Of a DNA stretch of 64,000 bases, positions 719 through 34,508 are shown one piece after another. This stretch comes from Escherichia phage IrisVonRoten. The stretch is taken from the sequence record MZ501075; one strand, written 5' to 3'. A program made the translations under genes and the position numbers. The first letter of the stretch is position 1. Each line of letters begins with the position of its first letter. The notes beneath the pieces are model-generated. The model did not search any database and was not told the origin of the DNA. It was given only the letters and a program-made list of their open reading frames with translations.

Positions 719-913
719 TTAATCATAAAAAAGACCACGAATAGTATTAGCAAATTTAAGTATAATAGCGCGGTTTGAGCTACTTAACTTTTTAATATCG
801 AAAGTGGGATCAGTCAAATATCTCGCCATAAATTTTACTTGTTTAGCGGAAAGTTGACCCTTATTCCACTTTTTAATTTTACCATAACATACCCAATATT
901 CTTTATTCATCAT
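719..913 (-). CDS. hypothetical protein (64 aa)
   Basis: ORF track; start overlaps stop of upstream gene (operon-like packing). Confidence 0.35.
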   Translation of the reverse strand: MMNKEYWVCYGKIKKWNKGQLSAKQVKFMARYLTDPTFDIKKLSSSNRAIILKFANTIRGLFYD

Positions 914-1295
914 TTAGTCCCGGAACATAGATTCCAACACGATTTAATTGTTCTTTAGCTTCTTTGAGAATACCTGGAGTGTACTCCCAAATATCATCTT
1001 CCACCTGTAAAAGATGGGGCGAACAACCGTCACCAGGCACACGACATATGGCCAAACCACGTGGATGGAACAAAGAGAAATTTAGTGCAACAATTAAACC
1101 CATAGCAGACAATTCATTCCAATCCAATTCCCATTCCCTAGCGTAGCCTGATAGGAAAACACCAACACAGGGATCATCTATTTGCTGCTCTGGAAAAGTG
1201 AAGGAGGCTTGTCTTACCCCCAACCAACGTTGTAGCAGCTTCTCCGCACGCTTCACCAAACTAGGATCAATCTGACGCCAATATACTTGTTTCAT
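903..1295 (-). CDS. hypothetical protein, paralog of 1304..1732
   Basis: ORF track; shared motifs with neighbour (MGL[IV]xALN, W-Y-PG, C-terminal PGL). Confidence 0.5.
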   Translation of the reverse strand: MKQVYWRQIDPSLVKRAEKLLQRWLGVRQASFTFPEQQIDDPCVGVFLSGYAREWELDWNELSAMGLIVALNFSLFHPRGLAICRVPGDGCSPHLLQVEDDIWEYTPGILKEAKEQLNRVGIYVPGLNDE

Positions 1296-1303
1296 TGTGC
1301 CCC

Positions 1304-1732
1304 TTAGGCAGTTAAACCCGGAATTTGATAACCAAAACGACGAAGTTTTTGGATACCATCATTTACTTCTTCCGGTGAGTAAGACCAACCGTAATGTTCA
1401 TTAATTTGAAAGCCTGGAGATTCACTGGTTTTATAATTAACAACAATACGGTGTTTATTGGGCATAAATAGCTTATAGTTTAATGCAAAAACCAAGCCCA
1501 TTTCATCTAACTCTTTCCAGCCGACAATCTCTTCAAGACCATCCTCTACCTGCACAATTAAACCAATACAGGGAGCTTCTTCAATCTCACCTTTAAAAGC
1601 AAAGGAGATTTCATTATTCTCACACCATATTTTCAGAGCATTAATAGCCTCATTGTACAGGTTGTCTGGAAGAGTACGCCAAAAATTAACCAATATTGGG
1701 TTAGCTTCTTTAGAGAATACATTATTGAACAT
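1304..1732 (-). CDS. hypothetical protein, paralog of 903..1295
   Basis: ORF track; tandem paralog pair. Confidence 0.5.
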   Translation of the reverse strand: MFNNVFSKEANPILVNFWRTLPDNLYNEAINALKIWCENNEISFAFKGEIEEAPCIGLIVQVEDGLEEIVGWKELDEMGLVFALNYKLFMPNKHRIVVNYKTSESPGFQINEHYGWSYSPEEVNDGIQKLRRFGYQIPGLTA

Positions 1733-1734
1733 AT

Positions 1735-2241
1735 TTACACCTTAAATTGTTGTAGGGCTTTACACATTTCAAGATCTGGACTAAATTCTAACATATAGCT
1801 AACAGCTTTTAAATCTTGAAGATTTATTCCAGTTCTACCGTTGACTATAACCGTTGGATACTGGTACATCATAGCACCAGCGTCATCCAGCACACACCAA
1901 TGTTTGAGCTTATGCTTTTCAACAAAGCGAAGAACAGAATTACCCCTAGATAGCCCACCACCAGTAAAATCCGTTGTACCAAGAAAACGATCGATAAGAT
2001 CTAATCCGGTCATAATCTGAACGTTCTCCATCTCATTCCTAACAGAGAACCATGAAGATACCCCAACAATCATTATTGGAGAAGGACTAATAAAGTCCTG
2101 AAAAGCCTTGAGAAGCGGTTTAAAAACCCAGTCACTTCCAAAGAAAATCTTTTCATCATCAGGTGCATGGTGATGGGAGATGCTCGAGTTGAGCACCCCA
2201 TCAATATCTAGAAAAATAATTGGAGTATTACTTATTTCCAT
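1735..2241 (-). CDS. HAD-superfamily phosphatase-like protein
   Basis: N-terminal IFLDIDGVLN (DxDG motif) and later VLDD; manual motif reading only. Confidence 0.45.
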   Translation of the reverse strand: MEISNTPIIFLDIDGVLNSSISHHHAPDDEKIFFGSDWVFKPLLKAFQDFISPSPIMIVGVSSWFSVRNEMENVQIMTGLDLIDRFLGTTDFTGGGLSRGNSVLRFVEKHKLKHWCVLDDAGAMMYQYPTVIVNGRTGINLQDLKAVSYMLEFSPDLEMCKALQQFKV

Positions 2242-2410
2242 TTTTGTTCCTTTCTAAGAACGTATCATACTCAACTGTATCAACATATATGACACCATAG
2301 TCATCGGATTTATAGTCCATTTCCCATAGCTCACATCGATAGCACCAACTACCATCCGCCCATACAAATATATCATCGGGATGTGTATATACAGATTTAA
2401 CTATGGACAT
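2228..2410 (-). CDS. hypothetical protein (60 aa)
   Basis: ORF track; overlaps neighbours by few codons. Confidence 0.3.
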   Translation of the reverse strand: MSIVKSVYTHPDDIFVWADGSWCYRCELWEMDYKSDDYGVIYVDTVEYDTFLERNKNGNK

Positions 2411-3225
2411 ATCTGTTTCCCCGGCATATAAGGTCTACCCTCTAGATGAGCTTCCACACGAGCAATAAAACCAGGGTCACTGAAAGCATCTACCGCACCT
2501 TTACTCCAGTAAGGAATACCACGATCTTCCAGTTGGTACATATCACTACGAGTCATACCTTGATAGCCTGGTTCCGCCGCTAAGGCACTATCGTAGTAGT
2601 TAACTACCATAAGTTTCGCAGCAGTCCGATTAAGAACAGGGAATAATTCCCAGTAGAAGTTAATTACTTGGTTAGAGCAACCAACCACCACAATCATATC
2701 TTGACTGGTAATACCATCAAAAACATTGTACATCTCAGCGTATGCTGGAGCACACTCCCCAAAGAAGATTACATTAGGTTTAACCCATTTATAATCATCA
2801 GGGTCAATAGAGCTATACCCAACATCAATAACTCGTTTATTACTACTATTGTAGCTATCAGCTACAACAACCTCTTTTAAATACCCGTGAATGTGCAGAA
2901 TGTCACTATGTGGAACGCCAGCACGCTCAATAAGGTCATCAACGTTGGTAGTTAAGTTTACTACTTGACCCGGATATTTCTTATACCATTCACCAATACG
3001 CAGGTGTGCAAGATTGGGCTCAACAGTTTCTAACTCTTCACGACGTTTGTTGTAAAACATGTGGGTTTTATGATAAAAGTTACCACGAAAGGCATGAATA
3101 TTACATACCTCTTCTAAGTCATAATCATCCCACAATGCTTTACCACTAGCAGTATCAGTACGAAAAGCTCGTACACCACTTTCAACACTCAAACCCGCAC
3201 CGCTAATAATAATTAATCTACGCAC
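2401..3225 (-). CDS. Sir2-like (sirtuin family) NAD-dependent protein
   Basis: ISGAGLSVESGVRAFR...LW, NVDDLIERAG and HIHG motifs typical of SIR2 family. Confidence 0.7.
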   Translation of the reverse strand: MRRLIIISGAGLSVESGVRAFRTDTASGKALWDDYDLEEVCNIHAFRGNFYHKTHMFYNKRREELETVEPNLAHLRIGEWYKKYPGQVVNLTTNVDDLIERAGVPHSDILHIHGYLKEVVVADSYNSSNKRVIDVGYSSIDPDDYKWVKPNVIFFGECAPAYAEMYNVFDGITSQDMIVVVGCSNQVINFYWELFPVLNRTAAKLMVVNYYDSALAAEPGYQGMTRSDMYQLEDRGIPYWSKGAVDAFSDPGFIARVEAHLEGRPYMPGKQICP

Positions 3226-3899: not shown

Positions 3900-5774
3900 T
3901 TATTTAGCTCGAATATCCTGATGTTTCACCCTGCCCATAACCTCGTGCTGTTTGCCGGGGTTAAATGGACGAGCACCTGGATTTCCAAGATACCCACAAA
4001 CTCGACGAGTTACTTCAAGAGTTTCGGGGTCATGATTACCACAGATAGGGCACTTAAACCCATCTTCGGATGCTACTGTTTCACCTAAGAATCCACATTT
4101 ACCGCAAGAATCCACTGGAGTATTAATACCGAAGTAATGAACTTTACTAGCAGCATAATTAATAACCCATTCCAGTGCATCTGGGAATCGTTTCATATCT
4201 GGTAGTTCTACATAGGAAATACACCCACCAGAAGCAATAGGAGTAAAGTTAGATTCATAATCAAATTTCACGTTAGGAGCAACTTTACGTTCCACATCAA
4301 GGTGGTGAGAGTTGGTGTAGTATCCTTTGGACAGAATATCTTCATGCTCCGGGAAATATTCACGGTCTAGACGACAAAAGCGATCACATAGGGACTCTGA
4401 TGGTGTAGCATACAGGCTATAACCTAACTTAGTCTCTTCCTTCTTCTGATCGACCCTATCCCGCATGTACTGCAATACACGCTGAACAAACTTGATGCAG
4501 GTCTCAGACATTGTATCTACATCTTTGCCAAACATGAACTGTAGCATTTCATGGCAACCAATATACCCCAGAGATACAGAAGCACGGTTATAGAAATGAT
4601 CGAATACATATTCATCCGGCCCTAAGCGTAGTCCAAAGGCTCCTGACATATAGAGGATGGGTGCGGCTTTAGCTTGAATGTACTTTAAGCGATCAACTCT
4701 CCACTCCAATGCTTTTAACGCTGTATCCACACGTAGCTCGAGCAAATCAAAGAATAGATCAATATTCCCTTCAGCTTCGATAGCAATTCTAGGCAGGTTT
4801 ACAGAAACAACACCTAAGTTATTACGACCTGCAGTTTCACCATCTTCTGTAGCAGCCAGGAATGAACGGCAGCCCATAGAAACTTTATAGTCACCAGTAA
4901 CTTCCACAACCTTATCGTAGCTGATATAGTCGGGATACATACGTTCAGCAGTACATTTCATAGCTAACTTCTTGACGTCATAATTAACATCTCCTGGCTT
5001 CATATTTACGCCATCACGCAGAACAAACACCAGTTTCGGGAAGATAGCTGTACGTTTATTGATACCTAAACCATCCATGCGTACTTTCAGTATTGCTTTC
5101 TGTACTAGACGTGCTTCCCAAGAAGTTCCTAGACCAAAACCAAAGGTAATAAATGGACTCTGACCATTAGAGTTGAACATGGTATTGATTTCATATTCTA
5201 AACCCTGACAAGCGTCATAGACTTCTTTTTCAGTCATCTCCGTAGCCATTACGGATGCTTTGGCTTCATCCTTAGTCCAACGTTTTGCAAACGCATGATT
5301 TTTGTCATAGGATTTACGAACATAAGGGGCTAATACTTCATCAAGGCGATCTACAGAAGTACCACCATACTGATGGGAGCTAACCTGAGTGATAATCTGA
5401 GCAGTAATAGCCGCCGCAGTAGTGATAGAGTTTGGAGTGCTAATTTCAGCATTACCAACCTTCATACCATTCTTCAACATATCTTCCAAAGCTACCAGAC
5501 AACAGTTAGTCATACCTAATGCAGCATAATCAGCATCATGGAAATGAATATCTCCAATCATATGAGCATTTCGAATCTGAATTGGCATTTCTTCTAGAAT
5601 CAGATATTTACTTAACTCCCCTGCAAGCATATCCCTTTGTGTAGGGAAACGCTCAGAGGGTTTATTCGCATTATTAAAGAGAAGCTCTTCATCAGCAGAA
5701 CCCTCAATAATTTCTTTGCAGTTTCTAATCAAGGACTGCATTTCCTTGTATTTTAGTTCATCATTGCGATTCAT
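3900..5774 (-). CDS. nrdD: anaerobic ribonucleoside-triphosphate reductase (class III RNR)
   Basis: 624 aa; C-terminal Cys cluster CGKCGF...CPICG and glycyl-radical motif RRVCGYLG. Confidence 0.9.
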   Translation of the reverse strand: MNRNDELKYKEMQSLIRNCKEIIEGSADEELLFNNANKPSERFPTQRDMLAGELSKYLILEEMPIQIRNAHMIGDIHFHDADYAALGMTNCCLVALEDMLKNGMKVGNAEISTPNSITTAAAITAQIITQVSSHQYGGTSVDRLDEVLAPYVRKSYDKNHAFAKRWTKDEAKASVMATEMTEKEVYDACQGLEYEINTMFNSNGQSPFITFGFGLGTSWEARLVQKAILKVRMDGLGINKRTAIFPKLVFVLRDGVNMKPGDVNYDVKKLAMKCTAERMYPDYISYDKVVEVTGDYKVSMGCRSFLAATEDGETAGRNNLGVVSVNLPRIAIEAEGNIDLFFDLLELRVDTALKALEWRVDRLKYIQAKAAPILYMSGAFGLRLGPDEYVFDHFYNRASVSLGYIGCHEMLQFMFGKDVDTMSETCIKFVQRVLQYMRDRVDQKKEETKLGYSLYATPSESLCDRFCRLDREYFPEHEDILSKGYYTNSHHLDVERKVAPNVKFDYESNFTPIASGGCISYVELPDMKRFPDALEWVINYAASKVHYFGINTPVDSCGKCGFLGETVASEDGFKCPICGNHDPETLEVTRRVCGYLGNPGARPFNPGKQHEVMGRVKHQDIRAK

Positions 5775-6071: not shown

Positions 6072-6144
6072 ATATTTGTAAGTTGATAAACAAGATCTTT
6101 TTGTTGATCCTCTGTTAGCGAAGTACACTATAGGAGTGTTATTT

Positions 6145-6897
6145 ATGGGAAAAGCACGTCAAAAAAGAGAGAACCGCAATGGTTCAAGAAAGCGTGGCAA
6201 CAAATATGAGAATAACGTAATTCAGGCTGATTTTTCTAATGATTACGCTAACCCAGTTGCTAAATCCCTAGTAGGTAAAAACCGAGAGCAAAAATCATAT
6301 ATCAATATGATCAAGAACAACACAGTGACTGTGGGTATCGGTGAGCCAGGTACTGGTAAAACCTTTATCCCGTCTGTTCTTGCAGCTCAGGAACTCGTAG
6401 ACATTCACTCAGATATTGAGCAAGTGATCCTCGTACGTCCTAACGAACCTCTAGGTAAGTCTCTTGGTATGCTTCCTGGTGACCTAGCAGAAAAGCTAGA
6501 GCCTTGGTTAGAGCCAATAGCTGATGGTATGAAATGGGCCATCGGTGATCATGCCTATAAGGGATATGTCGAACGTCAGAAAATTAAATTTTTGGCTATA
6601 GAACATGCTCGTGGCAGAACTTTCAACAACTCCTATGTAATTGTCGATGAAGCTCAGAATATTTCCGTTGAGGCAATGGTTTGTCTCCTAACTCGTGTAG
6701 GACAAGACTGCCGTTTAATTATCTGCGGGGATATAGCTCAAAAAGACATTAAAGGTGACTCAGGTCTAGCACTTCTTATGGAAGTTTATGAGAAATATGA
6801 AAATGCTCCATTCTCAATGATCGAATTAATTGATAACGTTCGTTCTGCTGAGTCTAAAGCATTCTACGATATTTTTAAAGACATGGGGAAGGTGTAA
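6145..6897 (+). CDS. phoH: PhoH-like ATPase
   Basis: Walker A GEPGTGKT, Walker B-like VIVDEAQN; start chosen at ATG after RBS taggag. Confidence 0.8.
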   Translation: MGKARQKRENRNGSRKRGNKYENNVIQADFSNDYANPVAKSLVGKNREQKSYINMIKNNTVTVGIGEPGTGKTFIPSVLAAQELVDIHSDIEQVILVRPNEPLGKSLGMLPGDLAEKLEPWLEPIADGMKWAIGDHAYKGYVERQKIKFLAIEHARGRTFNNSYVIVDEAQNISVEAMVCLLTRVGQDCRLIICGDIAQKDIKGDSGLALLMEVYEKYENAPFSMIELIDNVRSAESKAFYDIFKDMGKV

Positions 6898-7096: not shown

Positions 7097-7240
7097 GTGG
7101 CCAAAAACTAGACTGACAACACAGAAGGCCTGGGTATGAAAATACTCGGGCCTTTTCTATCAGAAAATTTTATTTGCCAAATGACTGAGAATAAAGTAGA
7201 ATATTCCTTAAATCCTGATAACTATAAAAAGGAAAACCAA

Positions 7241-9571
7241 ATGAGCCATCGCATTGAAAAAGTAATTAAACGTGACGGTACTGTAGAAGACTTTGCTCCT
7301 GAAAAACTCAATGGTTGGGCAGAGTATGGTTGCAAAACAGTTGATGTAAGTTGGTCAGCCATTACTATGGCTGCTCAAAAAACTCTGCCTAAAGGGGTTG
7401 TAGATTCCGACACTCTGATGGATGCTTTAATTAAGGCTGCTGAAAGTCTTATCAAAGATAATCCAGCATACGACGTGCCAGCAAAGGAATTACGTCTTGC
7501 GCAAATGCGTAAACGCCTTTATGATTCCTTCGAACCACCTTCTCTGCGCTTTTTCCACGATCATATGGTTAGTGTAGGTGCATGGGAAGACATGAGTGCA
7601 TGGATTACCAATGAGCAATTTGAAGCTCTGAATCAGGTTATCGACCATGATCGCGACCGTCTTTTCACTAGCGGAGGATTGAAACAATTCTTTGATAAGT
7701 ATTCTCGTCGTAATATCGCAACTGGCGAAATTTACGAAACCCCGCAATTTGCCTATATGGGTATGGCAATGGCGATGTTATCTCAACCTAATTGGACAAT
7801 TCTAGATGCAATCGACCTCTACAACGCAATGTCGCTACACAAAATCAACGTTCCTACGCCGCCATTGGTTGGCTTGCGCTCTAGTGACCGTGGATTTGCT
7901 AGTTGCTGCCTCGTGGATTCCACTGACACGTTGGATTCAATCGACACAGCCGAGCACATCGTCTTCAAAATGGTCGCAGCCAGAGCGGGAATCGGGTATC
8001 ATCTTGAAAGCCGATCAATTGCTGATCCGGTGCGAAATGGGGCATTCCCGCATTCCGGAAAACTGCCATATTATCGACACATTGACCGATCAGTAAAGGC
8101 TAATACTCAGCAAACTCGTGGCGGTTCTGCTACAGTGTCTTATCCTTACTTTGACCCTGAAATCATTCAGTTGATGCAGGTTAAGCAACAACGTGCTACA
8201 GATGAGAATAAAATCGATAAGATGGATTATTCTCTGAGCTTCAACAATCTTTTGTTAAAACGTTATCTGAAAAATGAAGATATTACGCTAATGTCATACT
8301 TCTATGCTCCAGAAGTTCATGAAGCGTTTTATAGTGATGACGAGGCTAAATTTGAAGAAATCTATGTGGCAGCGGAGAAACGTGTGGCATCTCTTACAAA
8401 GATCGACCACGAAGGAAAAACAGTTCCAGCAGCTCCTAAAGTCTCTGCAAAAGAAATCCTAGATACTTGGCTACGTATCCGAATGGAAACAGGACGTATG
8501 TATGCTCACCACATCGGGGAATCTAATCGTCATGGTAACTTCCTTGATCCGATCCGTATGACAAACCTTTGTGTTGAAATTACTCAGCCTACACGCCCAT
8601 TCCACCACATTACAGAGCTGTATAAAACAAAAGAACAACTTGATCAAATGAAGCCGGAGGATATTGGGGAAGTATCTCTGTGTAACTTAGGTGGTGTTGT
8701 ACTAGGACGCATGGAATCTCTGGCTGAGTGGGAAAAGACTTGCTATATTCTTCTGAAATTCGTTGATACCATCATTGAAATTCAGGACTATCCGTTCCCA
8801 ACTATGGAATATACAGCTAAGAAACGTCGTAACGTTGGTATTGGCCTTATGAACGCAGCAGGTGCAATGGCAGCAGAAGGTCTGGCTTATGAAGGCGTTG
8901 AAGCACGTAACTGGATCCATCGTGAAGCTGAAAAACTGTCCTACTTCCTGCATAAAGCTTCTGTACGTCTGGCTAAAGAACAAGGTGCATGTGAATGGTT
9001 TAATCGTACTAAACCATCTAAAGGAACTCTGGTAATCGATACGTATAAGAAAACTGTTGATGAGCTGGTATCAGTAGGCCTAGAAATGGATTGGGAATCT
9101 CTGCGTGCAGATATTCTGAAATACGGTATGCGTAACTCTGTTCTGACGGCACAGATGCCGGGAGAAAGTTCTTCCGTTCTGTTAGGGGTTACTAACTCTA
9201 TTGAACCACCTCGTAAGATTGTATCTATCAAGGGTAGTGCAGTGAATAAAGTAATTGCAATTGCTCCCGGTGCAACCGATTGGGAAACTTTAATGAGCTA
9301 TAAACTGGCTTATGATGTGGATCGTATTGAATGGATCAAATGGGTAGCAACTATGCAGAAATTCTTCAGCCAGTCTATCAGTACTAATATGTACTACGAC
9401 TACACCAAGTTTGAGAATGAAATCATTCCTGGCCCAGTAGTAGTTCGTGATTTCATGACTGCTGTTAAATATGGTTGGAAGACTTGGTACTACGCAAACT
9501 TCAACACTGCGAATGGTGGAGGAGCGGGTGAAGAAGCAGCGGGTTGTGCTTCTGGTGGTTGCCAGTTGTAA
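7241..9571 (+). CDS. nrdA: ribonucleoside-diphosphate reductase alpha subunit (class I)
   Basis: ATP-cone start MSHRIEKVIKRDG; catalytic motifs NLCxEI and PGESSS; start set at ATG after RBS aaggaaaa. Confidence 0.9.
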   Translation: MSHRIEKVIKRDGTVEDFAPEKLNGWAEYGCKTVDVSWSAITMAAQKTLPKGVVDSDTLMDALIKAAESLIKDNPAYDVPAKELRLAQMRKRLYDSFEPPSLRFFHDHMVSVGAWEDMSAWITNEQFEALNQVIDHDRDRLFTSGGLKQFFDKYSRRNIATGEIYETPQFAYMGMAMAMLSQPNWTILDAIDLYNAMSLHKINVPTPPLVGLRSSDRGFASCCLVDSTDTLDSIDTAEHIVFKMVAARAGIGYHLESRSIADPVRNGAFPHSGKLPYYRHIDRSVKANTQQTRGGSATVSYPYFDPEIIQLMQVKQQRATDENKIDKMDYSLSFNNLLLKRYLKNEDITLMSYFYAPEVHEAFYSDDEAKFEEIYVAAEKRVASLTKIDHEGKTVPAAPKVSAKEILDTWLRIRMETGRMYAHHIGESNRHGNFLDPIRMTNLCVEITQPTRPFHHITELYKTKEQLDQMKPEDIGEVSLCNLGGVVLGRMESLAEWEKTCYILLKFVDTIIEIQDYPFPTMEYTAKKRRNVGIGLMNAAGAMAAEGLAYEGVEARNWIHREAEKLSYFLHKASVRLAKEQGACEWFNRTKPSKGTLVIDTYKKTVDELVSVGLEMDWESLRADILKYGMRNSVLTAQMPGESSSVLLGVTNSIEPPRKIVSIKGSAVNKVIAIAPGATDWETLMSYKLAYDVDRIEWIKWVATMQKFFSQSISTNMYYDYTKFENEIIPGPVVVRDFMTAVKYGWKTWYYANFNTANGGGAGEEAAGCASGGCQL

Positions 9572-9580
9572 TAAAAGACA

Positions 9581-9606
9581 AGGAGATCTTCGGGTCTCCT
9601 TTTTCT
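9581..9606 (+). terminator. Rho-independent terminator after nrdA
   Basis: aggagatcttcgggtctcct followed by TTTTCTTT. Confidence 0.6.
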
Positions 9607-9618
9607 TTGAAATTTTAC

Positions 9619-9647
9619 TTGCTAATCGCTACCTGATTTGCTATAAT
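9619..9647 (+). promoter_or_regulatory. T5-type early promoter upstream of nrdB
   Basis: ttgctaatcgctacctgatttgctataat. Confidence 0.6.
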
Positions 9648-9678
9648 ATTCCTGAAATAGTGAGAAAGAGGAAAATCA

Positions 9679-10824
9679 ATGACTACTTTACTAAACCTGA
9701 ATTGGGATCATACTAACGCTGATCTTTTCCTGGGCGATTCTCTAGGTATCGCAGATTATGTACGTGTAGCACATCCAGAACTAGAACGTCTGGCACTTCT
9801 GCAACGCTCTCAATTTTGGACTGAGACAGAAATCAGTTTAGAAGCTGATAAGAAACAATGGCCTAACCTCCCACGTGAAATTCAGGAAATTACACTTCTG
9901 AATTTAGCATGGCAGACTCAAACTGATTCCTTTATCAGTCGAGCGCCTGAAGCAGCTATTATGCCACTTGTAAGTCGTCCAGAACTAGAGGGTATGCTCA
10001 AGCAGTGGAGCTACTTTGAAGACCTGCATAGTCGTGCTTATAGTAATATTATTCGTAATGTGCTGACTGATCCAGCAGAATTTATTGATTCTGTAACTAA
10101 AAACCAAGAAGCATTTGCACGTATTGCAGATTCTGTTGAACTGTTCGATGAACTGTACCAGTTAGGTCAGTATTTCATCGCAGTACGTGATCATCGTGGT
10201 GACAATACATATCCAGAAACTGAGTTCCCTGAAGTTAAGCGTGAAACTCAGGCTAAACTGTTAGATGCTTATTTTGCAATCTACGGTCTGGAAGCAATGC
10301 AGTTCTACGCATCCTTTGCGTGTACTTTTGCTCTAGCAGAGAACGATATTCTGCAGGGTATTGCTAAAAATCTGCAATTAATCGCTAAAGATGAGGCTCT
10401 GCACACCCAGATGTCTAAAGCAATCATCCAGATTATGTTCCAGCAGTTTGACAAAGATCTGGTAGATGAAGCAGTGGCTAAAGCACCAGCACAGCTCCTG
10501 AAAACTCTGAAAACTGAAATTGAATGGGGTCATTTCATCTTCAAAGGTCGTAGTCTAATCGGTTTGAATGCAGAACTTCTAGAAGAATACTTGTACTTTG
10601 TGGGGCGTAATGCATTTATGCACATTGGTGTAGAATGGCCTAGTCACTTACCAGTAATCACTAAAAACCCTATTCCGTGGATCATGAACTGGTTGGATAC
10701 TACTTCTCTACAGCCTGCTCCACAAGAAATCCAGATTGGCGCAGCCTACCGTGTAGGTCAGGTAACTGAGACCTCTACTGATACTCTGAAAGATCTGGGC
10801 AATGAATTTGGAGATTTCCTATGA
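9679..10824 (+). CDS. nrdB: ribonucleoside-diphosphate reductase beta subunit (class I)
   Basis: 381 aa; di-iron ligand motifs DEALH and FYASFA..FALAE typical of R2. Confidence 0.9.
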   Translation: MTTLLNLNWDHTNADLFLGDSLGIADYVRVAHPELERLALLQRSQFWTETEISLEADKKQWPNLPREIQEITLLNLAWQTQTDSFISRAPEAAIMPLVSRPELEGMLKQWSYFEDLHSRAYSNIIRNVLTDPAEFIDSVTKNQEAFARIADSVELFDELYQLGQYFIAVRDHRGDNTYPETEFPEVKRETQAKLLDAYFAIYGLEAMQFYASFACTFALAENDILQGIAKNLQLIAKDEALHTQMSKAIIQIMFQQFDKDLVDEAVAKAPAQLLKTLKTEIEWGHFIFKGRSLIGLNAELLEEYLYFVGRNAFMHIGVEWPSHLPVITKNPIPWIMNWLDTTSLQPAPQEIQIGAAYRVGQVTETSTDTLKDLGNEFGDFL

Positions 10825-11354
10825 TTACAGCAATGTATGCAGTTGGGCCGAATGGGGAGTTCGGCCTCCGAGGTAAGCTTCCCTGGGGTTCTTTTAAAGA
10901 AGAACTAGATGCTTTTTATTCACAATTAGATGTACTAAATCCTGATAATATTATTATTGGGGCGGGTACTTATTTAGCTCTTCCATATGCCGTTAGGGAA
11001 CGTATGATTGGAGCTTCTGACCTATTTATTCGTGCTGATCGTCCATTGCCAGACGATATTACACATGATATTTACACTCCCATATCAATGATAGGTGATA
11101 CACTACCTACTTTTCTAAAAGATCAGCAAACAGTAGTTCTAGGTGGAGCTAATCTTCTTCTAGAAATGTACCAACATGGACATATTGAAAGTGCTTTTGT
11201 ATCTACAATTTTTAGCGAGCAGAAGCTAGAGGCAGATACACACCTAGATAGTATGATACTGGATTATAACTATGAATCCACTCGATTAGTCTATGCAGTT
11301 GGCGCAAACAGTGATAACAGCCTGCGATTTGTACAGGAATTGGTTACTTATTAA
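10821..11354 (+). CDS. dihydrofolate reductase
   Basis: 177 aa; position between nrdB and thymidylate synthase; overlapping ATGA junctions; weak motif support. Confidence 0.65.
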   Translation: MITAMYAVGPNGEFGLRGKLPWGSFKEELDAFYSQLDVLNPDNIIIGAGTYLALPYAVRERMIGASDLFIRADRPLPDDITHDIYTPISMIGDTLPTFLKDQQTVVLGGANLLLEMYQHGHIESAFVSTIFSEQKLEADTHLDSMILDYNYESTRLVYAVGANSDNSLRFVQELVTY

Positions 11355-30946: not shown

Positions 30947-31018
30947 GCGTGATTAGTTCAGTGGCTAGAATAACTGGCTTCCAACCAGTAGACACGAGTT
31001 CGACTCTCGTATCCCGCA
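30947..31018 (+). tRNA. tRNA-Gly (anticodon TCC)
   Basis: Anticodon arm actgg-cttccaa-ccagt, T-arm acgag-ttcgact-ctcgt, one acceptor mismatch. Confidence 0.6.
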
Positions 31019-31035
31019 CCAAATAAGGAATCTCT

Positions 31036-31287
31036 ATGCACGTTTTTGAGTTTCGTAATAAAAGTACCGATAAACGAGTTATCATTATTGGGGAAACATA
31101 CCGAGCTTATGAACAAACTGACGGCTCTGTTATCTTGAATGATGAAAAAGGAGGTTTTAGCTTTTATCCAGAAGAACCTTACGAAGAGTTTCGAAAACAA
31201 TTTAACCTAGACTGGAGAAAGCATTTAAACACTGTTGCTTCATCTGTAGTATTGCCAACTACCAGTACTGTACTCTCTAATGGCTGA
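31036..31287 (+). CDS. hypothetical protein (83 aa)
   Basis: ORF track. Confidence 0.35.
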   Translation: MHVFEFRNKSTDKRVIIIGETYRAYEQTDGSVILNDEKGGFSFYPEEPYEEFRKQFNLDWRKHLNTVASSVVLPTTSTVLSNG

Positions 31288-31454
31288 CAACCTAAAAGTA
31301 AAGATTGATAAACAAAAGAAACGTGTAGAAGTAGAGATTGGTGAAGAACGTGTTGCCTTTACTTTTGAATTTCTACAGCAAATGGCAATGACAGTTATGA
31401 CTGATAAGTCCCCTGTTATTGAAAAAGAAATCCCGTTGAAATAACGGGATTATC

Positions 31455-31526
31455 GCTCCTAAAGCATTGCTGGCGATGCAGTTGCCTTGTAAGCATCTGA
31501 ACCGGGTTCGATTCCTGGTGGGAGCA
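31455..31526 (+). tRNA. tRNA-Thr (anticodon TGT)
   Basis: Acceptor gctccta/tgggagc, D-stem gcat/atgc, anticodon loop cttgtaa, T-arm ccggg-ttcgatt-cctgg. Confidence 0.6.
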
Positions 31527-31544
31527 CCAAATTTAAAAATTCAT

Positions 31545-31573
31545 TTGCTTTCTCTCTTATTTATCGCTATAAT
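31545..31573 (+). promoter_or_regulatory. T5-type early promoter
   Basis: ttgctttctctcttatttatcgctataat. Confidence 0.55.
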
Positions 31574-31603
31574 ATTTATATAAATTAATGAGAGGGAAAC
31601 CAA

Positions 31604-31897
31604 ATGAAACGTTATCTTTCTGTAGTATTCCAAACTGGTGGCCAAAGATACACCTATGAATTTCCATCTTCTTGGAAAATCAAAGAGGGTGATCAAGTAG
31701 TAGTGCTAACACCGCGTGAAGAGTATAAAGTAGTAACGGTTAAACAAGTATTTCCAAAAGATCATGAACCAGCTAAAGGCATCCGCTATAAGATGATTCA
31801 TGGTGTGGTTCGTCAAGTACCACGAACTGAGGTAGAAGTAGATAAGACTGGAGAAGCTAAATTTCATTATACTTCTTACCTAAACGAGAGGCGATAA
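31604..31897 (+). CDS. hypothetical protein (97 aa)
   Basis: ORF after RBS gagagggaaacc. Confidence 0.45.
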   Translation: MKRYLSVVFQTGGQRYTYEFPSSWKIKEGDQVVVLTPREEYKVVTVKQVFPKDHEPAKGIRYKMIHGVVRQVPRTEVEVDKTGEAKFHYTSYLNERR

Positions 31898-32103
31898 TGA
31901 GAATTTCTTTTACAGAAAAGATCATGAGTAATGGTGTTATGATCATTACCGCGTGGGATGGTAATCAGTGGTGCAGTATTTCAGGTATTAAGCCTGCAGA
32001 TCAAACACCTGAAAACATCCGTAAAGTAAAACGAAAGATGGCGGAATGTGCCCGACTTCCCGGTGCGCCTAGAAATGGTAAACGTTCTACAATTAAATGT
32101 TAA
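31897..32103 (+). CDS. hypothetical protein (68 aa)
   Basis: ORF track; ATGA overlap. Confidence 0.35.
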   Translation: MRISFTEKIMSNGVMIITAWDGNQWCSISGIKPADQTPENIRKVKRKMAECARLPGAPRNGKRSTIKC

Positions 32104-32104
32104 T

Positions 32105-32178
32105 GCTTCGGTAGCTTAGCGATCTAAAGCACTCGGCCGATAACCGAGAGATCGGGGGTTTAAATCCCTCCCGGAGTA
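32105..32178 (+). tRNA. tRNA-Ile (anticodon GAT)
   Basis: Acceptor gcttcgg/ccggagt, anticodon arm ctcgg-ccgataa-ccgag; T-loop tttaaat atypical. Confidence 0.55.
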
Positions 32179-32277
32179 CCAAATTTAGGAATTAAGACTA
32201 TGCGTCCAGGAAAGTTTAAAAAAGCTAATTGGTCTATAGAGTATAAAGAATACTTACTTAGTCTAATAAAACATAAT

Positions 32278-32350
32278 AGTTAGTTGGCAGAGTGGTTATG
32301 CACCTCCTTCATACGGAGCGACTACAGTGGTTCAAATCCACTACTAACTA
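32278..32350 (+). tRNA. tRNA (anticodon CAT; Met or Ile2)
   Basis: Acceptor agttagt/actaact, anticodon loop ttcatac, T-arm agtgg-ttcaaat-ccact. Confidence 0.55.
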
Positions 32351-32390
32351 CCATTAACAGAGCTAGAGATAGCTAAATATAGGAGCAATT

Positions 32391-32585
32391 ATGTTAACAG
32401 TTAAAATAATGTCCACTGATGGTGGTGAGCAGATTCATGTTGGTAAAAGCGTAGGGTTTAATCCCAGAAATAAAAGCATAGCTATTTCTGGAATAGATCA
32501 AGCAATCTTCTTAAAAGAAGATGAAGTAGCATACGTTATGAACCAAACTGGTAAGACAGTTTCTGTATATCGTGGTAAACTATAA
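32391..32585 (+). CDS. hypothetical protein (64 aa)
   Basis: ORF after RBS taggag. Confidence 0.4.
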   Translation: MLTVKIMSTDGGEQIHVGKSVGFNPRNKSIAISGIDQAIFLKEDEVAYVMNQTGKTVSVYRGKL

Positions 32586-32627
32586 AGAATAAAGAGCTGA
32601 GCCAATTTCTAACATCGGGGAGAGCTA

Positions 32628-32996
32628 ATGAAAGCATATCAAAATCTTAAGTCTGGCGTAATTAATCTTGTTCATGATAATCAGATTATTCAACTATACT
32701 CTAAAGATGGTGAACTTAAACAAAAAGTTCTGGTTGAGGATCTAGAAGGTATCACACCACATTTTGACCCCGAATCCTTCCGTGAAGTCAAGGTGGAAGT
32801 AGTTCCTCAAATCGAGGGAGGTCAGCACCTAAATGTCAATGTGTTAAGTCGTGATCAGCTTTTGGATGCACAGAAACATCCTGAAAAATACCCTCAATTA
32901 ACTATCCGTGTTTCAGGGTATGCTGTACGTTTTAACTCACTGACGCGTGAACAGCAGAACGACGTTATTAGTCGTACATTTACTCAGGCGATGTAA
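32628..32996 (+). CDS. grcA: autonomous glycyl-radical cofactor (GrcA/YfiD-like)
   Basis: C-terminal half [38 protein letters not shown] closely matches GrcA/PFL C-terminal glycyl-radical domain. Confidence 0.8.
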
Positions 32997-33077
32997 TGGG
33001 GCTTGGATACGGTTTCTACGAACTACGTAAGGTAGTCGAGCAAACTCCATTTATCTCCCAAGTTTTAGGAGAAATGT

Positions 33078-33392
33078 GTGGATCGAGCATTAAGACGTCA
33101 TCACCGGCAACGTGTAAAGAATAACCGCAAGAAGTATTGGACAGTCTTCCCACATGAAGAAAGCCCTAAACGGTTAGGTATTATCACTACTACTCCTTGT
33201 ATCTGTTCTTGTTGGATGTGCGGGAATCCTCGCAAACACTTTAAGAATAGTAAAGCAGGGATGAAAACCTCGGAGATTAGGAAAATGGAAGCAATGATTA
33301 CGGATATTTCAAATGATGAATTTGATGGCTTCGTAGGATTCGGAGAAGGAATTAGCTCAGGCTGTTTCGAAGATGACCACCCCGATCTGTAA
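33078..33392 (+). CDS. hypothetical Cys-containing protein (104 aa)
   Basis: ORF track; CICSCWMCGNP. Confidence 0.4.
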   Translation: MDRALRRHHRQRVKNNRKKYWTVFPHEESPKRLGIITTTPCICSCWMCGNPRKHFKNSKAGMKTSEIRKMEAMITDISNDEFDGFVGFGEGISSGCFEDDHPDL

Positions 33393-33401
33393 TTAATAAC
33401 A

Positions 33402-33438
33402 AACCCCAGCTATTGAATAAGTAGTCTGGGGTTTTTCT
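33402..33438 (+). terminator. Rho-independent terminator
   Basis: aaccccag..ctggggtt hairpin + TTTTTCT. Confidence 0.6.
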
Positions 33439-33513
33439 ATATACAGGTAAATAATTTATGTATAATAAAATTCATCCACATTAGGTTAATTTAAAAGACT
33501 TAATGGAGGTAAT

Positions 33514-33861
33514 ATGAGCCGTACTTATCGTAAACAATCTGGTGATCAGTGGTGGAAGTCTAAAGAACAATTCTCTCAAGAATATTCTTTCCTCAAAGAA
33601 AATGGCTACTGGATTCGTGTTACTTATGCTAAATCCTGGGACGACATCAAAAAAGAAATGAAGGAAGCAACCATTCGTAATGAGAAAAAGGATGGTTATA
33701 GCTGGAATTCTGTTAGTAAGAATGTTAAGTGGCATTCTAATAAAATGGTTCGTCAAGGAAATCGTCAAGAACTCCACCGCGTGATGAAAGATCCAGAAAA
33801 TTACGACTATAATCGCGATCATGACATGCGTAAGCGTGGATTATGGTGGTGCTATGACTAA
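33514..33861 (+). CDS. hypothetical protein (115 aa)
   Basis: ORF after RBS ggaggtaat. Confidence 0.45.
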   Translation: MSRTYRKQSGDQWWKSKEQFSQEYSFLKENGYWIRVTYAKSWDDIKKEMKEATIRNEKKDGYSWNSVSKNVKWHSNKMVRQGNRQELHRVMKDPENYDYNRDHDMRKRGLWWCYD

Positions 33862-33878
33862 ATTCTGAAATAATTCAT

Positions 33879-33907
33879 TTGCTAAACCTCTCTTTTCTTG
33901 CTATAAT
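33879..33907 (+). promoter_or_regulatory. T5-type early promoter
   Basis: ttgctaaacctctcttttcttgctataat. Confidence 0.55.
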
Positions 33908-33937
33908 ATATTTATAAATTGATGAGAGAGGTTTGAA

Positions 33938-34219
33938 ATGAAAACTCGTCTAGACTGTGCCATTCATGTTCTTGAACATGATGTTGCGGGAACCTGTATG
34001 TCTTACCACGAAGCAGGTCGTTTAATTAAAGAACGTGTGGCAGATGTGTGCGGATTGAAGATTACTGCTGAGGAAGCTGATGATCTTTTAGGTCAAGCAC
34101 TGGAGAAAACCGAAATGTTTCTCTGCGATTCTTGTTCTTGGTGGTGTGAAGCTCACGAACATTCTTTCAACGATTATGATGTATGTCGTGATTGTAGTGG
34201 GGAGGATGAAGATGAATAA
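33938..34219 (+). CDS. Cys-rich small protein (93 aa)
   Basis: ORF after RBS gagagagg; CDSCSWWC..CRDCSG. Confidence 0.45.
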   Translation: MKTRLDCAIHVLEHDVAGTCMSYHEAGRLIKERVADVCGLKITAEEADDLLGQALEKTEMFLCDSCSWWCEAHEHSFNDYDVCRDCSGEDEDE

Positions 34220-34508
34220 GTTTATTATTGCACTGATGATCTCCGCAGTTAGTTTCGGTTCTCTGGCATCTACCAAAGTTTCTATGAAAAATGGTAATGT
34301 TAAAGTCCAACAGAACGGCATTATTACCGAGTATGGTAAAGTTCGTGATGTTAAAGAACGTAATGGTAAAGTAGAGGTATACACTAACAAAAATTTCTCT
34401 ACACCAGCAGTAACTATTCACCGTAATGGTAATATTACTACCCAGCGTTCGAACAATTCAGACTCCTTCACTTGCCGTTACGACTGTGATATTGAGATGG
34501 AAGAATGA
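34212..34508 (+). CDS. secreted small protein (signal peptide)
   Basis: MNKFIIALMISAVSFGSLAS signal-like N-terminus; start after RBS ggagg. Confidence 0.45.
   Translation: MNKFIIALMISAVSFGSLASTKVSMKNGNVKVQQNGIITEYGKVRDVKERNGKVEVYTNKNFSTPAVTIHRNGNITTQRSNNSDSFTCRYDCDIEMEE

What the first reader, a model, noticed from the sequence alone, without database searches (positions are those of the whole stretch)
32628..32996. Phage-encoded GrcA-like glycyl-radical spare-part protein
The C-terminal 60 residues are nearly identical in pattern to the GrcA/YfiD glycyl-radical domain ([13 protein letters not shown]). The same genome carries anaerobic RNR NrdD at 3900-5774. No radical-SAM activase (NrdG-like CxxxCxxC protein) is evident next to nrdD in this window. 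The phage may rely on host activases while supplying its own glycyl-radical modules.
Basis: partly seen in the sequence, partly recalled or inferred. Interest (0 to 1): 0.6.

Follow-up and report, generated by a model that had tools for sequence, protein, structure and literature searches.

The report
T5-like phage GrcA spare-part protein
This T5-like phage gene encodes a small copy of the radical-carrying end of the host enzyme pyruvate formate-lyase, most likely used to repair that enzyme after oxygen damage; the same kind of protein was shown to do this for phage T4 in 2001, so the finding is real but ordinary.

Summary
Window 32628-32996 (+) is an intact 122-aa gene. Residues 61-122 are a PFL-type glycyl-radical domain (Pfam Gly_radical 4.7e-18; E. 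coli GrcA structure 6owr 1e-30; 50 of 62 residues identical to the PflB C-terminus). The radical glycine is G97, in RVSGYAV.

The window is a T5-like phage (Demerecviridae). The gene is the orthologue of T5.056 and a full-length homologue (53% identity) of T4 Vs.6/Y06I. Y06I was shown in 2001 to be activated by E. coli PFL activase and to restore oxygen-cleaved PFL.

Twenty-nine distinct T5-like alleles give dN/dS 0.065, so the gene is under purifying selection.

nrdD at 3900-5774 (-) is real. No radical-SAM activase was found in the window, nor in two complete related genomes, using tblastn, an NrdG profile and a CxxxCxxC scan. Reliance on host PflA and NrdG is therefore a sound inference.

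None of this is new. About 1,580 phage records carry the gene, and many name it GrcA. nrdD-only phages were described in 2013.

One modest extra: in RaK2-like jumbo phages and some Aeromonas phages grcA lies inside the nrdD-nrdG operon. That fits a link through formate, which PFL produces and NrdD uses as reductant.

Interest is low.

The parts
31546..31574 (+). Probable early promoter of the transcription unit that contains grcA (TTGCTT, 17-nt spacer, TATAAT); the equivalent of T5 promoter P11
   Evidence: Read. The region is 95% identical to the stretch annotated as promoter P11 in the T5 reference genome. The consensus scan did not report it because the -35 hexamer matches only 3 of 6 positions.
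31604..31897 (+). Small early ORF (97 aa, phrog_4760, function unknown), first gene of the unit
31897..32103 (+). Small early ORF (68 aa, phrog_9814, function unknown)
32105..32181 (+). tRNA-Ile (GAT)
32278..32353 (+). tRNA-Met (CAT), the last tRNA of the T5-type tRNA cluster
32391..32585 (+). Small ORF (64 aa, phrog_3909, function unknown); annotated in chee24 but not in the T5 reference
32617..32622 (+). Shine-Dalgarno-like GGGGAG just upstream of the grcA start codon
   Evidence: Read directly
32628..32996 (+). grcA-like gene: 122-aa autonomous glycyl-radical (spare-part) protein, orthologue of T5.056 and homologue of T4 vs.6/Y06I
   Evidence: phrog_1209, full length; dN/dS 0.065
32628..32807 (+). 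N-terminal half (residues 1-60). It shows no detectable similarity to the E. coli GrcA N-terminus but is homologous to T4 Vs.6 (shared MKAYQ.L start and DPE.F) and is under purifying selection. By analogy with YfiD residues 1-60, it is the likely element that binds cleaved PFL.
   Evidence: dN/dS 0.10; role of YfiD residues 1-60 from PMC8683613
32808..32993 (+). Glycyl-radical domain (residues 61-122), equivalent to PflB 698-759; the radical glycine G97 is at 32916-32918
   Evidence: dN/dS 0.017; 50/62 identical to PflB
33078..33392 (+). Co-transcribed downstream gene (104 aa, GTG start preceded by AGGAG; T5.055 orthologue, phrog_4499) with the motif CICSCWMCGNPRK; function unknown, no evidence that it works with GrcA
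33401..33437 (+). Rho-independent terminator that ends the unit (stem AAACCCCAGCTATT / AGTAGTCTGGGGTTT followed by a T-run)
   Evidence: -19 kcal/mol, z -4.2; 97% identical to the annotated T5 terminator and promoter P10a region
3900..5774 (-). nrdD, class III (anaerobic) ribonucleotide reductase: the phage's other glycyl-radical protein, which also has no phage-encoded activase

Best explanation
[quoted passage not shown] It is transcribed early in infection, as the second-to-last gene of a unit at the end of the T5-type tRNA cluster.

The proposed mechanism has four steps. (1) When traces of oxygen cleave host pyruvate formate-lyase (PflB) at its radical glycine (G734), the phage protein binds the cleaved enzyme through its N-terminal half. 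(2) Its C-terminal 62 residues take the place of PflB residues 698-759. (3) The host radical-SAM activase PflA then installs a new radical on G97. (4) PFL activity is restored, so pyruvate is again converted to acetyl-CoA and formate.

The phage supplies only the consumable part. The activase and the 82-kDa catalytic body come from the host. The benefit to the phage is probably continued fermentative ATP and acetyl-CoA supply, plus formate, during infection in microaerobic gut-like conditions.

What is shown here: domain identity, an intact radical site, purifying selection, full-length homology to the tested T4 protein, and absence of any phage activase. What is inferred: actual binding to cleaved PFL, activation by PflA, and any fitness benefit.
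For: The C-terminal domain is 50/62 identical to PflB 698-759 and 49/62 to GrcA, and every residue of the [22 protein letters not shown] stretch that carries the radical site (RVSGYAV) is invariant.

The protein is homologous over its full length to T4 Vs.6/Y06I (53% identity, E 1e-38). Y06I was shown to receive a radical from E. coli PFL-AE and to rescue oxygen-cleaved PFL (Wagner 2001, via PMC8683613).

All 31 T5-like copies examined are intact, with dN/dS 0.065 (C-terminal half 0.017, N-terminal half 0.10).

The gene has its own ribosome-binding site. It lies within a promoter-to-terminator unit that is 95-97% identical to the annotated T5 unit.

No PflA or NrdG homologue was found in the window or in two complete related genomes. 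A representative host, E. coli K-12, encodes pflA, pflB and nrdG.

The YfiD N-terminal half is known to be needed for binding cleaved PFL (PMC8683613). That fits the selective constraint seen on the phage N-terminal half.
Against: No experiment has been done on the T5-type protein. Its N-terminal half shows no detectable similarity to the E. coli GrcA N-terminus. It scores below the curated NCBIfam GrcA cut-off (122 bits against 170), although the biochemically validated T4 protein does too (151). Twelve of the 62 C-terminal residues differ from PflB, so its fit into Salmonella or E. coli PflB is assumed rather than shown. The complete genome that the window comes from is not in the collections, so absence of an activase outside the 64 kb rests on relatives.
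Confidence: 0.8

Rival explanations
1. GrcA is functionally coupled to the phage's anaerobic ribonucleotide reductase. Its main purpose would be to keep host PFL producing formate, the electron donor of E. coli/T4-type NrdD, so that dNTP synthesis for phage DNA continues when oxygen fluctuates. This refines the main explanation by changing the selective purpose while keeping the biochemistry.
For: In RaK2-like jumbo phages the gene order is nrdD-grcA-(DUF4326)-nrdG. In Aeromonas phage PX29 and contig L061 it is nrdD-nrdG-grcA, and in PX29 grcA overlaps nrdG by 23 nt with nrdC and nrdH following. Every phage lineage seen here with grcA and enough sequence to judge (T5-like, T4-like, RaK2-like, Aeromonas T4-like) also carries nrdD. 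The window NrdD is 54% identical to the formate-dependent E. coli enzyme and keeps its active-site cysteines. That formate is the reductant is established knowledge for E. coli and T4 NrdD, not something tested here.
Against: In the window grcA is about 27 kb from nrdD and in a different transcription unit. None of the 30 T5-like loci has an nrd gene within 10 kb of grcA, and in T4 vs.6 is not beside nrdD or nrdG. The lineages are few and related, so co-occurrence is weak statistically. No paper in the searched library discusses the link.
Confidence: 0.35
2. The protein is a spare part or radical donor for the phage's own NrdD, not for PFL.
For: Both are glycyl-radical proteins in one genome that lacks an activase. 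grcA is embedded in nrdD-nrdG operons in other phages.
Against: There is no pairwise similarity between GrcA and the window NrdD (best E 17). The radical domain is PFL-type (81-82% identical to PflB), whereas the NrdD radical site is RRVCGYLG next to a zinc ribbon. The T4 homologue works on PFL.
Confidence: 0.03
3. The protein is an inhibitor or decoy. It would soak up host PflA or cap PflB in order to shut down or redirect host fermentation, not repair it.
For: The N-terminal half differs from the host GrcA N-terminus. The phage supplies a substrate for the host activase without supplying an activase.
Against: The radical site and the whole domain that contacts the PFL active site are almost invariant (dN/dS 0.017). 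A decoy would not need that. The T4 homologue restores PFL activity in vitro. According to PMC8683613, free YfiD is not radicalised unless it is bound to cleaved PFL.
Confidence: 0.05
4. The ORF is a decaying fragment of a captured host pflB 3' end with no function of its own.
For: Several public records name it 'pyruvate formate-lyase' or 'acetyltransferase'. Only the last 62 residues resemble PflB.
Against: It is intact in 31 of 31 T5-like genomes, with dN/dS 0.065 and a constrained N-terminal half. It has its own ribosome-binding site and start codon. It is homologous over its full length to T4 Vs.6 and phrog_1209. About 1,580 phage records carry the gene.
Confidence: 0.01

Closest known systems
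Bacteriophage T4 Vs.6 / Y06I (autonomous glycyl radical cofactor; Wagner et al. 2001)
   Same: A phage-encoded protein of about 120 aa, alignable over its full length (53% identity, E 1e-38). Both start MKAYQ, share the RVSGYAV radical site and fall in the same PHROG family (phrog_1209). The host range (Enterobacteria) is the same, and neither phage was found to encode a PFL activase (for T4 this rests on prior knowledge, not on a scan here).
   Different: The T4 C-terminal domain is almost identical to host GrcA (59/62), whereas the T5 type is equally distant from GrcA, PflB and T4 Vs.6 (49-50/62). T4 carries its own nrdG and the T5-likes do not. The T5 type has not been tested biochemically.
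E. coli GrcA / YfiD (TIGR04365; PDB 6owr)
   Same: A stand-alone protein of about 14 kDa. The C-terminal 74 residues are 76% identical. The two-part layout is the same: a 60-residue N-terminal half followed by a glycyl-radical domain.
   Different: The N-terminal 50 residues show no detectable similarity. The score is below the curated family cut-off (122 against 170 bits). The last residues (TFTQAM) follow PflB (TFTQSM), not GrcA (TFTESL). The gene is expressed from a phage early promoter, not under host control.
C-terminal glycyl-radical domain of pyruvate formate-lyase PflB (residues 698-759; PDB 1h16 and others)
   Same: 81-82% identity over 61-62 residues, including the radical-glycine loop and the C-terminal helix. 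This is the part the protein is thought to replace.
   Different: It lacks the catalytic barrel of roughly 700 residues with Cys418/Cys419. It matches only positions 683-744 of the PFL model and scores 86 bits against a cut-off of 994. The label 'pyruvate formate-lyase' in some phage records is therefore a misnomer.
T5.056 of the phage T5 reference genome and 'GrcA' genes of other T5-like phages (VSe12, slur09, JLBYU40, T5_ev219 and others)
   Same: Orthologues at 92-100% protein identity in the same position, after tRNA-Met and before the T5.055-like gene and the terminator. Identical proteins exist in public records: phage R2 and contigs L012-L014.
   Different: Nothing of substance. The window has one extra 64-aa ORF between tRNA-Met and grcA that the T5 reference does not annotate.

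Membership tests
[quoted passage not shown] | Small stand-alone protein (about 14 kDa), not a fragment of a larger gene | tested here: met
   122-aa ORF with its own ribosome-binding site, start and stop; intact in 31 of 31 relatives
[quoted passage not shown] | C-terminal domain homologous to PflB residues ~693-759, with the radical glycine in RVSGYAV | tested here: met
   Pfam Gly_radical 4.7e-18; 6owr 1e-30 and PflB 2.3e-27; G97 aligns with GrcA G102 and PflB G734
[quoted passage not shown] | Score at or above the curated NCBIfam cut-off for TIGR04365 (170 bits) | tested here: not met
   122.4 bits, matching residues 50-122 only. The cut-off does not separate function here: the biochemically validated T4 Y06I also falls short (151.1 bits), as do the RaK2 (134) and PX29 (102) proteins, while E. 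coli GrcA scores 234.
[quoted passage not shown] | N-terminal region of about 60 residues that mediates binding to cleaved PFL | tested here: inconclusive
   A 60-residue N-terminal half is present and under purifying selection (dN/dS 0.10). It is homologous to that of T4 Vs.6 but shows no detectable similarity to the E. coli GrcA N-terminus. Binding cannot be tested here.
[quoted passage not shown] | Radical installed by PFL activase (PflA), with activity restored to oxygen-cleaved PFL | not testable with these tools
   Shown for YfiD and T4 Y06I only (PMC8683613). It needs EPR and enzyme assays.
Pyruvate formate-lyase / formate C-acetyltransferase (as some phage records label this gene) | Full-length catalytic barrel of about 760 aa with the Cys418/Cys419 pair | tested here: not met
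   Only 122 aa. It matches positions 683-744 of TIGR01255 at 86.5 bits, against a cut-off of 994.
Glycyl-radical enzyme activase (NrdG / PflA, radical SAM) encoded by the phage | A protein with a CxxxCxxC cluster that is homologous to NrdG or PflA | tested here: not met
   tblastn, an NrdG profile HMM and PflA phmmer found nothing in the window, in chee24 (complete) or in R2 (complete): best E 0.024-0.6 with no cysteine cluster, against controls at 1e-76 to 1e-80. The sole CxxxCxxC in a phage gene lies in a 104-aa protein of phrog_4499.
Class III ribonucleotide reductase NrdD (the second glycyl-radical protein cited in the finding) | NRDD catalytic domain, C-terminal zinc-ribbon cysteines and the RRVCGYLG radical site | tested here: met
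   Pfam NRDD 5.9e-172 and Gly_radical 6.6e-23; 54% identical to E. coli NrdD with the motifs conserved, but without the N-terminal ~110 residues (ATP-cone region)

The most novel reading that the evidence does not exclude
Phage GrcA may be part of a phage strategy for dNTP synthesis in low oxygen, not a general metabolic aid. By repairing host PFL it would secure formate, the reductant of the phage's class III ribonucleotide reductase. The supporting evidence is that grcA sits inside nrdD-nrdG operons in RaK2-like jumbo phages and Aeromonas T4-like phages, and that grcA occurs together with nrdD in T5-like and T4-like phages. I found no discussion of this link in the searched literature. It applies to the gene family as a whole and not specifically to this window, where grcA and nrdD lie 27 kb apart.
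Probability: 0.35. Interest if true: 0.45.

Novelty: already known. Interest (0 to 1): 0.15.

Why it matters
It matters little as a discovery. The gene family was characterised biochemically for T4 in 2001. The T5 reference gene (T5.056) has long been flagged as carrying a glycine-radical domain. Many T5-like genome records already call the gene GrcA, and identical proteins are in public databases.

It is a clear example of a phage carrying only the consumable part of a host enzyme system and borrowing the activase and the catalytic body.

Three smaller points have practical value. The labels 'pyruvate formate-lyase' and 'acetyltransferase' in many phage records are misnomers. The curated GrcA model cut-off misses all the phage versions tested here, including the validated T4 protein. 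The nrdD-grcA-nrdG arrangement in other phages gives a testable idea of why phages keep this gene, namely formate supply for anaerobic dNTP synthesis.

Tried and rejected
(1) I looked for a phage activase four ways, and all were negative: a CxxxCxxC scan of all six frames; tblastn with E. coli NrdG and PflA; a profile HMM built from five NrdG sequences, run with filters off; and phmmer with PflA. The best hit was a 27-residue stretch in a 93-aa ORF downstream of nrdD in phage R2 (E 0.024, no cysteines). I judged it to be chance.

(2) I tested whether the only CxxxCxxC-bearing ORF (33078-33392), which lies directly after grcA, could be a miniature activase or a partner of GrcA. It is 104 aa, has no Pfam match and belongs to phrog_4499 (function unknown). 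It occurs only in T5-like phages and not next to grcA in T4-like or jumbo phages. I rejected it as a partner for lack of evidence.

(3) I tested whether GrcA could be a spare part for the phage's NrdD. There is no sequence similarity, so I rejected this.

(4) I tested whether the ORF is a decaying pflB fragment. The dN/dS values reject this.

(5) An Rfam scan of 31000-34500 found only the three tRNAs.

(6) The promoter and terminator consensus scan missed both the promoter and the terminator that the T5 annotation and folding support.

(7) Literature searches for T5 together with nrdG, and for GrcA together with nrdD, formate and phage, found nothing specific.

(8) An early script error made it look as if fetched loci were missing from the sandbox. 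In fact the files hold several records each, and the analyses were repeated on the full set.

(9) I did not run structure prediction or the large protein-database searches. Identity of 76-82% to solved structures already settles the fold of the domain that matters, and the verdict would not have changed.

Full report
**What is there.** Window 32628-32996 (+) is an intact ORF of 122 codons with an ATG start and TAA stop. A Shine-Dalgarno-like GGGGAG lies at 32617-32622. The protein matches Pfam Gly_radical (E 4.7e-18, residues 62-103) and the NCBIfam GrcA model TIGR04365 (E 1.3e-35). Among solved structures it matches E. coli GrcA (6owr, E 1e-30) and the C-terminus of pyruvate formate-lyase (E 2.3e-27). 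The radical glycine is G97 (32916-32918), which aligns with G102 of GrcA and G734 of PflB.

**Where it comes from.** The window is a T5-like phage (Demerecviridae, Tequintavirus-like). The 1.6 kb around the gene is 98.8% identical to Escherichia phage chee24, and 439 phage records match it. The right-hand 25 kb is 90-93% identical to other T5-like phages and runs through the A1 and dmp pre-early genes into the receptor-binding protein gene. No record in the collection is the same phage. A protein 100% identical to this one is encoded by Salmonella phage vB_Sen_SG_WM_RUS_R2 and by three IMG/VR contigs. In the T5 reference genome the orthologue is T5.056, annotated as 'putative acetyltransferase-related protein, identified by match to InterPro domain IPR001150'.

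**Anatomy of the locus.**
- The gene lies at the end of the T5-type tRNA cluster, which has 23 tRNA genes between 23009 and 32353.
- By direct reading and by 95-97% identity to annotated T5 features, the transcription unit starts at a promoter at 31546-31574, the equivalent of T5 P11.
- It then runs through two small ORFs, tRNA-Ile, tRNA-Met, a 64-aa ORF, grcA and a 104-aa ORF (33078-33392, the T5.055 orthologue).
- It ends at a rho-independent terminator at 33401-33437 (-19 kcal/mol, z -4.2). The next promoter, the P10a equivalent, follows.
- Rfam finds only the tRNAs in this stretch.

**Is it functional?**
- Thirty-one T5-like copies (the window plus 30 IMG/VR loci, 29 distinct nucleotide sequences) are all intact.
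- Mean pairwise dN/dS is 0.065. It is 0.017 for the C-terminal 62 residues and 0.10 for the N-terminal 60. Both halves are therefore under purifying selection, and a decaying pflB fragment is excluded.
- The C-terminal 62 residues are 50/62 identical to PflB, 49/62 to E. coli GrcA and 49/62 to T4 Vs.6. T4 Vs.6 is 59/62 identical to GrcA.
- The N-terminal half has no detectable similarity to the E. coli GrcA N-terminus. The whole protein does align with T4 Vs.6 (53% identity, E 1e-38), sharing the MKAYQ.L start and a DPE.F motif, and with phrog_1209 over its full length.

**What it most likely does.** T4 Vs.6 is Y06I. According to PMC8683613, Wagner et al. (2001) found that YfiD of E. coli and Y06I of T4 are small spare-part proteins. 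They receive a glycyl radical from the PFL activase and restore activity to oxygen-cleaved PFL, and they remain the only two validated spare parts. The same paper shows that YfiD residues 61-127 copy the fold of PFL 693-759, and that the disordered residues 1-60 are needed for binding cleaved PFL and for efficient radical installation. The window protein has the same two-part layout, the same radical site and a constrained N-terminal half. The best-supported mechanism is therefore the same. After oxygen cleaves host PflB at G734, the phage protein docks on it, host PflA puts a radical on G97, and PFL works again. The domain identity, the selection and the homology to the tested protein are shown here. 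Binding, activation and any benefit to the phage are inferred.

**The activase question.**
- nrdD at 3900-5774 lies on the minus strand and is a complete class III reductase (Pfam NRDD 5.9e-172). It is 54% identical to E. coli NrdD and keeps the active-site cysteines, the zinc-ribbon cysteines and an almost identical VTRRVCGYLG...GKQ.EV..RVKH C-terminus. It lacks the first ~110 residues, the ATP-cone region.
- The genes downstream of it are two small ORFs, a Sir2-family protein, a HAD_SAK_2 protein and two DUF7415 proteins, not an activase.
- The only CxxxCxxC motif in the 64-kb window is in the 104-aa ORF after grcA.
- tblastn with E. coli NrdG and PflA, an NrdG profile HMM with filters off, and phmmer with PflA found nothing in the window, in the complete chee24 genome or in the complete R2 genome. 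The best E-values were 0.024-0.6 with no cysteine cluster, while positive controls scored 1e-76 to 1e-80.
- E. coli K-12, a representative host, encodes nrdG beside nrdD and pflA beside pflB.
It was also anticipated: Dwivedi et al. [quoted passage not shown] The window has the same arrangement (nrdD, phoH at 6136-6897, nrdA at 7136-9571).

**Is GrcA a spare part for the phage's own NrdD?** No. The two proteins show no pairwise similarity (best E 17). The GrcA domain is PFL-type throughout.

**Comparison with the known family.** The protein meets the structural definition of a GrcA-type spare part: small, stand-alone, with a PFL-type radical domain and a conserved glycine. It falls short of the curated NCBIfam cut-off (122 against 170 bits). 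The validated T4 protein (151), the RaK2 protein (134) and the PX29 protein (102) also fall short, and only E. coli GrcA passes (234). The cut-off reflects divergence of the N-terminal half in phage versions, not loss of function. The labels 'pyruvate formate-lyase', 'acetyltransferase' and '2-ketobutyrate formate-lyase' in many phage records are misnomers, because the protein has none of the roughly 700-residue catalytic body (86 bits against a 994-bit cut-off).

**How widespread is it?** tblastn finds the gene in 1,583 phage records. About 440 are T5-like at 80% identity or more. About 1,100 are mostly T4-like (gene vs.6) and other large Enterobacteria, Klebsiella and Aeromonas phages at roughly 50-60% identity. 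Many records already name it 'autonomous glycyl radical cofactor GrcA'.

**One thing worth keeping.** In 79 IMG/VR loci with 10-kb flanks, the 30 T5-like loci have no nrd gene near grcA. Three RaK2-like jumbo-phage contigs have the order nrdD-grcA-nrdG (with a DUF4326 gene between grcA and nrdG according to public annotation). One 235-kb contig and Aeromonas phage PX29 have nrdD-nrdG-grcA, and in PX29 grcA overlaps nrdG by 23 nt and is followed by nrdC and nrdH. PFL makes formate, and formate is the reductant of E. coli/T4-type NrdD (established knowledge, not tested here). A functional link between the two phage genes is therefore plausible: GrcA keeps formate flowing to NrdD when oxygen fluctuates. 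The searched literature does not discuss this. I rate it at about one in three. It concerns the gene family as a whole and not this window in particular.

**Verdict.** Interest is low (0.15).

Noticed in passing
window 33078-33392 (+): A 104-aa ORF directly after grcA in the same transcription unit, with a GTG start preceded by AGGAG. It carries the only CxxxCxxC in the window (motif TTTPCICSCWMCGNPRK). It matches phrog_4499 (E 2.9e-41) and is the T5.055 orthologue. The first ~80 residues are nearly invariant across T5-like phages and the tail is variable. chee24 annotates only the last 43 codons. It was found only in T5-like loci, so there is no evidence of a link to GrcA. Function unknown.
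   Followed up: partly
window 32996-33124 (+): A 42-aa ORF whose ATG overlaps the grcA stop codon (TAATG). All 30 T5-like relatives with enough flanking sequence (window included) keep the overlapping ATG, and in 27 of them the ORF is 53 aa. It overlaps the start of the 33078-33392 gene in another frame. Phage R2 annotates it. Whether it is translated is unknown.
   Followed up: partly
L042-L044 (RaK2-like jumbo phages, about 8000-11300), L061, and L011 (Aeromonas phage PX29, 2359-5378): grcA homologues lie inside the class III reductase operon: nrdD-grcA-(DUF4326)-nrdG in RaK2-like phages and nrdD-nrdG-grcA in PX29 and L061. In PX29 grcA overlaps nrdG by 23 nt. This suggests a functional link between PFL repair (formate supply) and anaerobic dNTP synthesis.
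   Followed up: partly
window 3900-5774 (-): The phage NrdD (624 aa) aligns with E. coli NrdD only from E. coli residue 113 onward. It therefore lacks the N-terminal ATP-cone region, while its C-terminal radical and zinc-ribbon region is almost identical to the host's.
   Followed up: partly
window 903-3225 (-): Downstream of nrdD lie a Sir2-family protein (2401-3225, Pfam SIR2 3.8e-24), a HAD_SAK_2 domain protein (1735-2241) and two paralogous DUF7415 proteins (1304-1732 and 903-1295). This stretch varies between T5-like phages; chee24 and R2 have different small ORFs directly after nrdD.
   Followed up: no
window 32391-32585 (+): A 64-aa ORF (phrog_3909) lies between tRNA-Met and grcA. It is annotated in chee24 but not in the T5 reference, where only 13 nt separate tRNA-Met from T5.056. 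In phage R2 the tRNA cluster is reduced to a few genes, yet grcA is kept with 100% protein identity.
   Followed up: no
L079 10189-14912 (IMG/VR contig with E. coli pflB): A P2-like prophage (ogr-like zinc-finger gene, gpD, gpU and tape-measure genes) lies directly 3' of an E. coli pflB gene, where pflA is normally found. Several 'viral' hits to the GrcA query (L072-L087) are host pflB genes at prophage borders of this kind, not phage genes.
   Followed up: no
window 39001-64000: The right end of the window runs through the pre-early region (A1 DNA-transfer protein, dmp) and on into the receptor-binding tail protein gene. The source sequence is therefore arranged or permuted differently from records such as chee24, which begin at the terminal repeat. 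No record in the phage collection is the same phage (best 87% coverage at 92.8% identity).
   Followed up: no
NCBIfam TIGR04365 (GrcA equivalog model): The curated cut-off of 170 bits excludes every phage GrcA tested: the window protein 122, T4 Y06I 151, RaK2 134 and PX29 102. This probably explains why many phage records leave the gene as hypothetical or misname it.
   Followed up: yes
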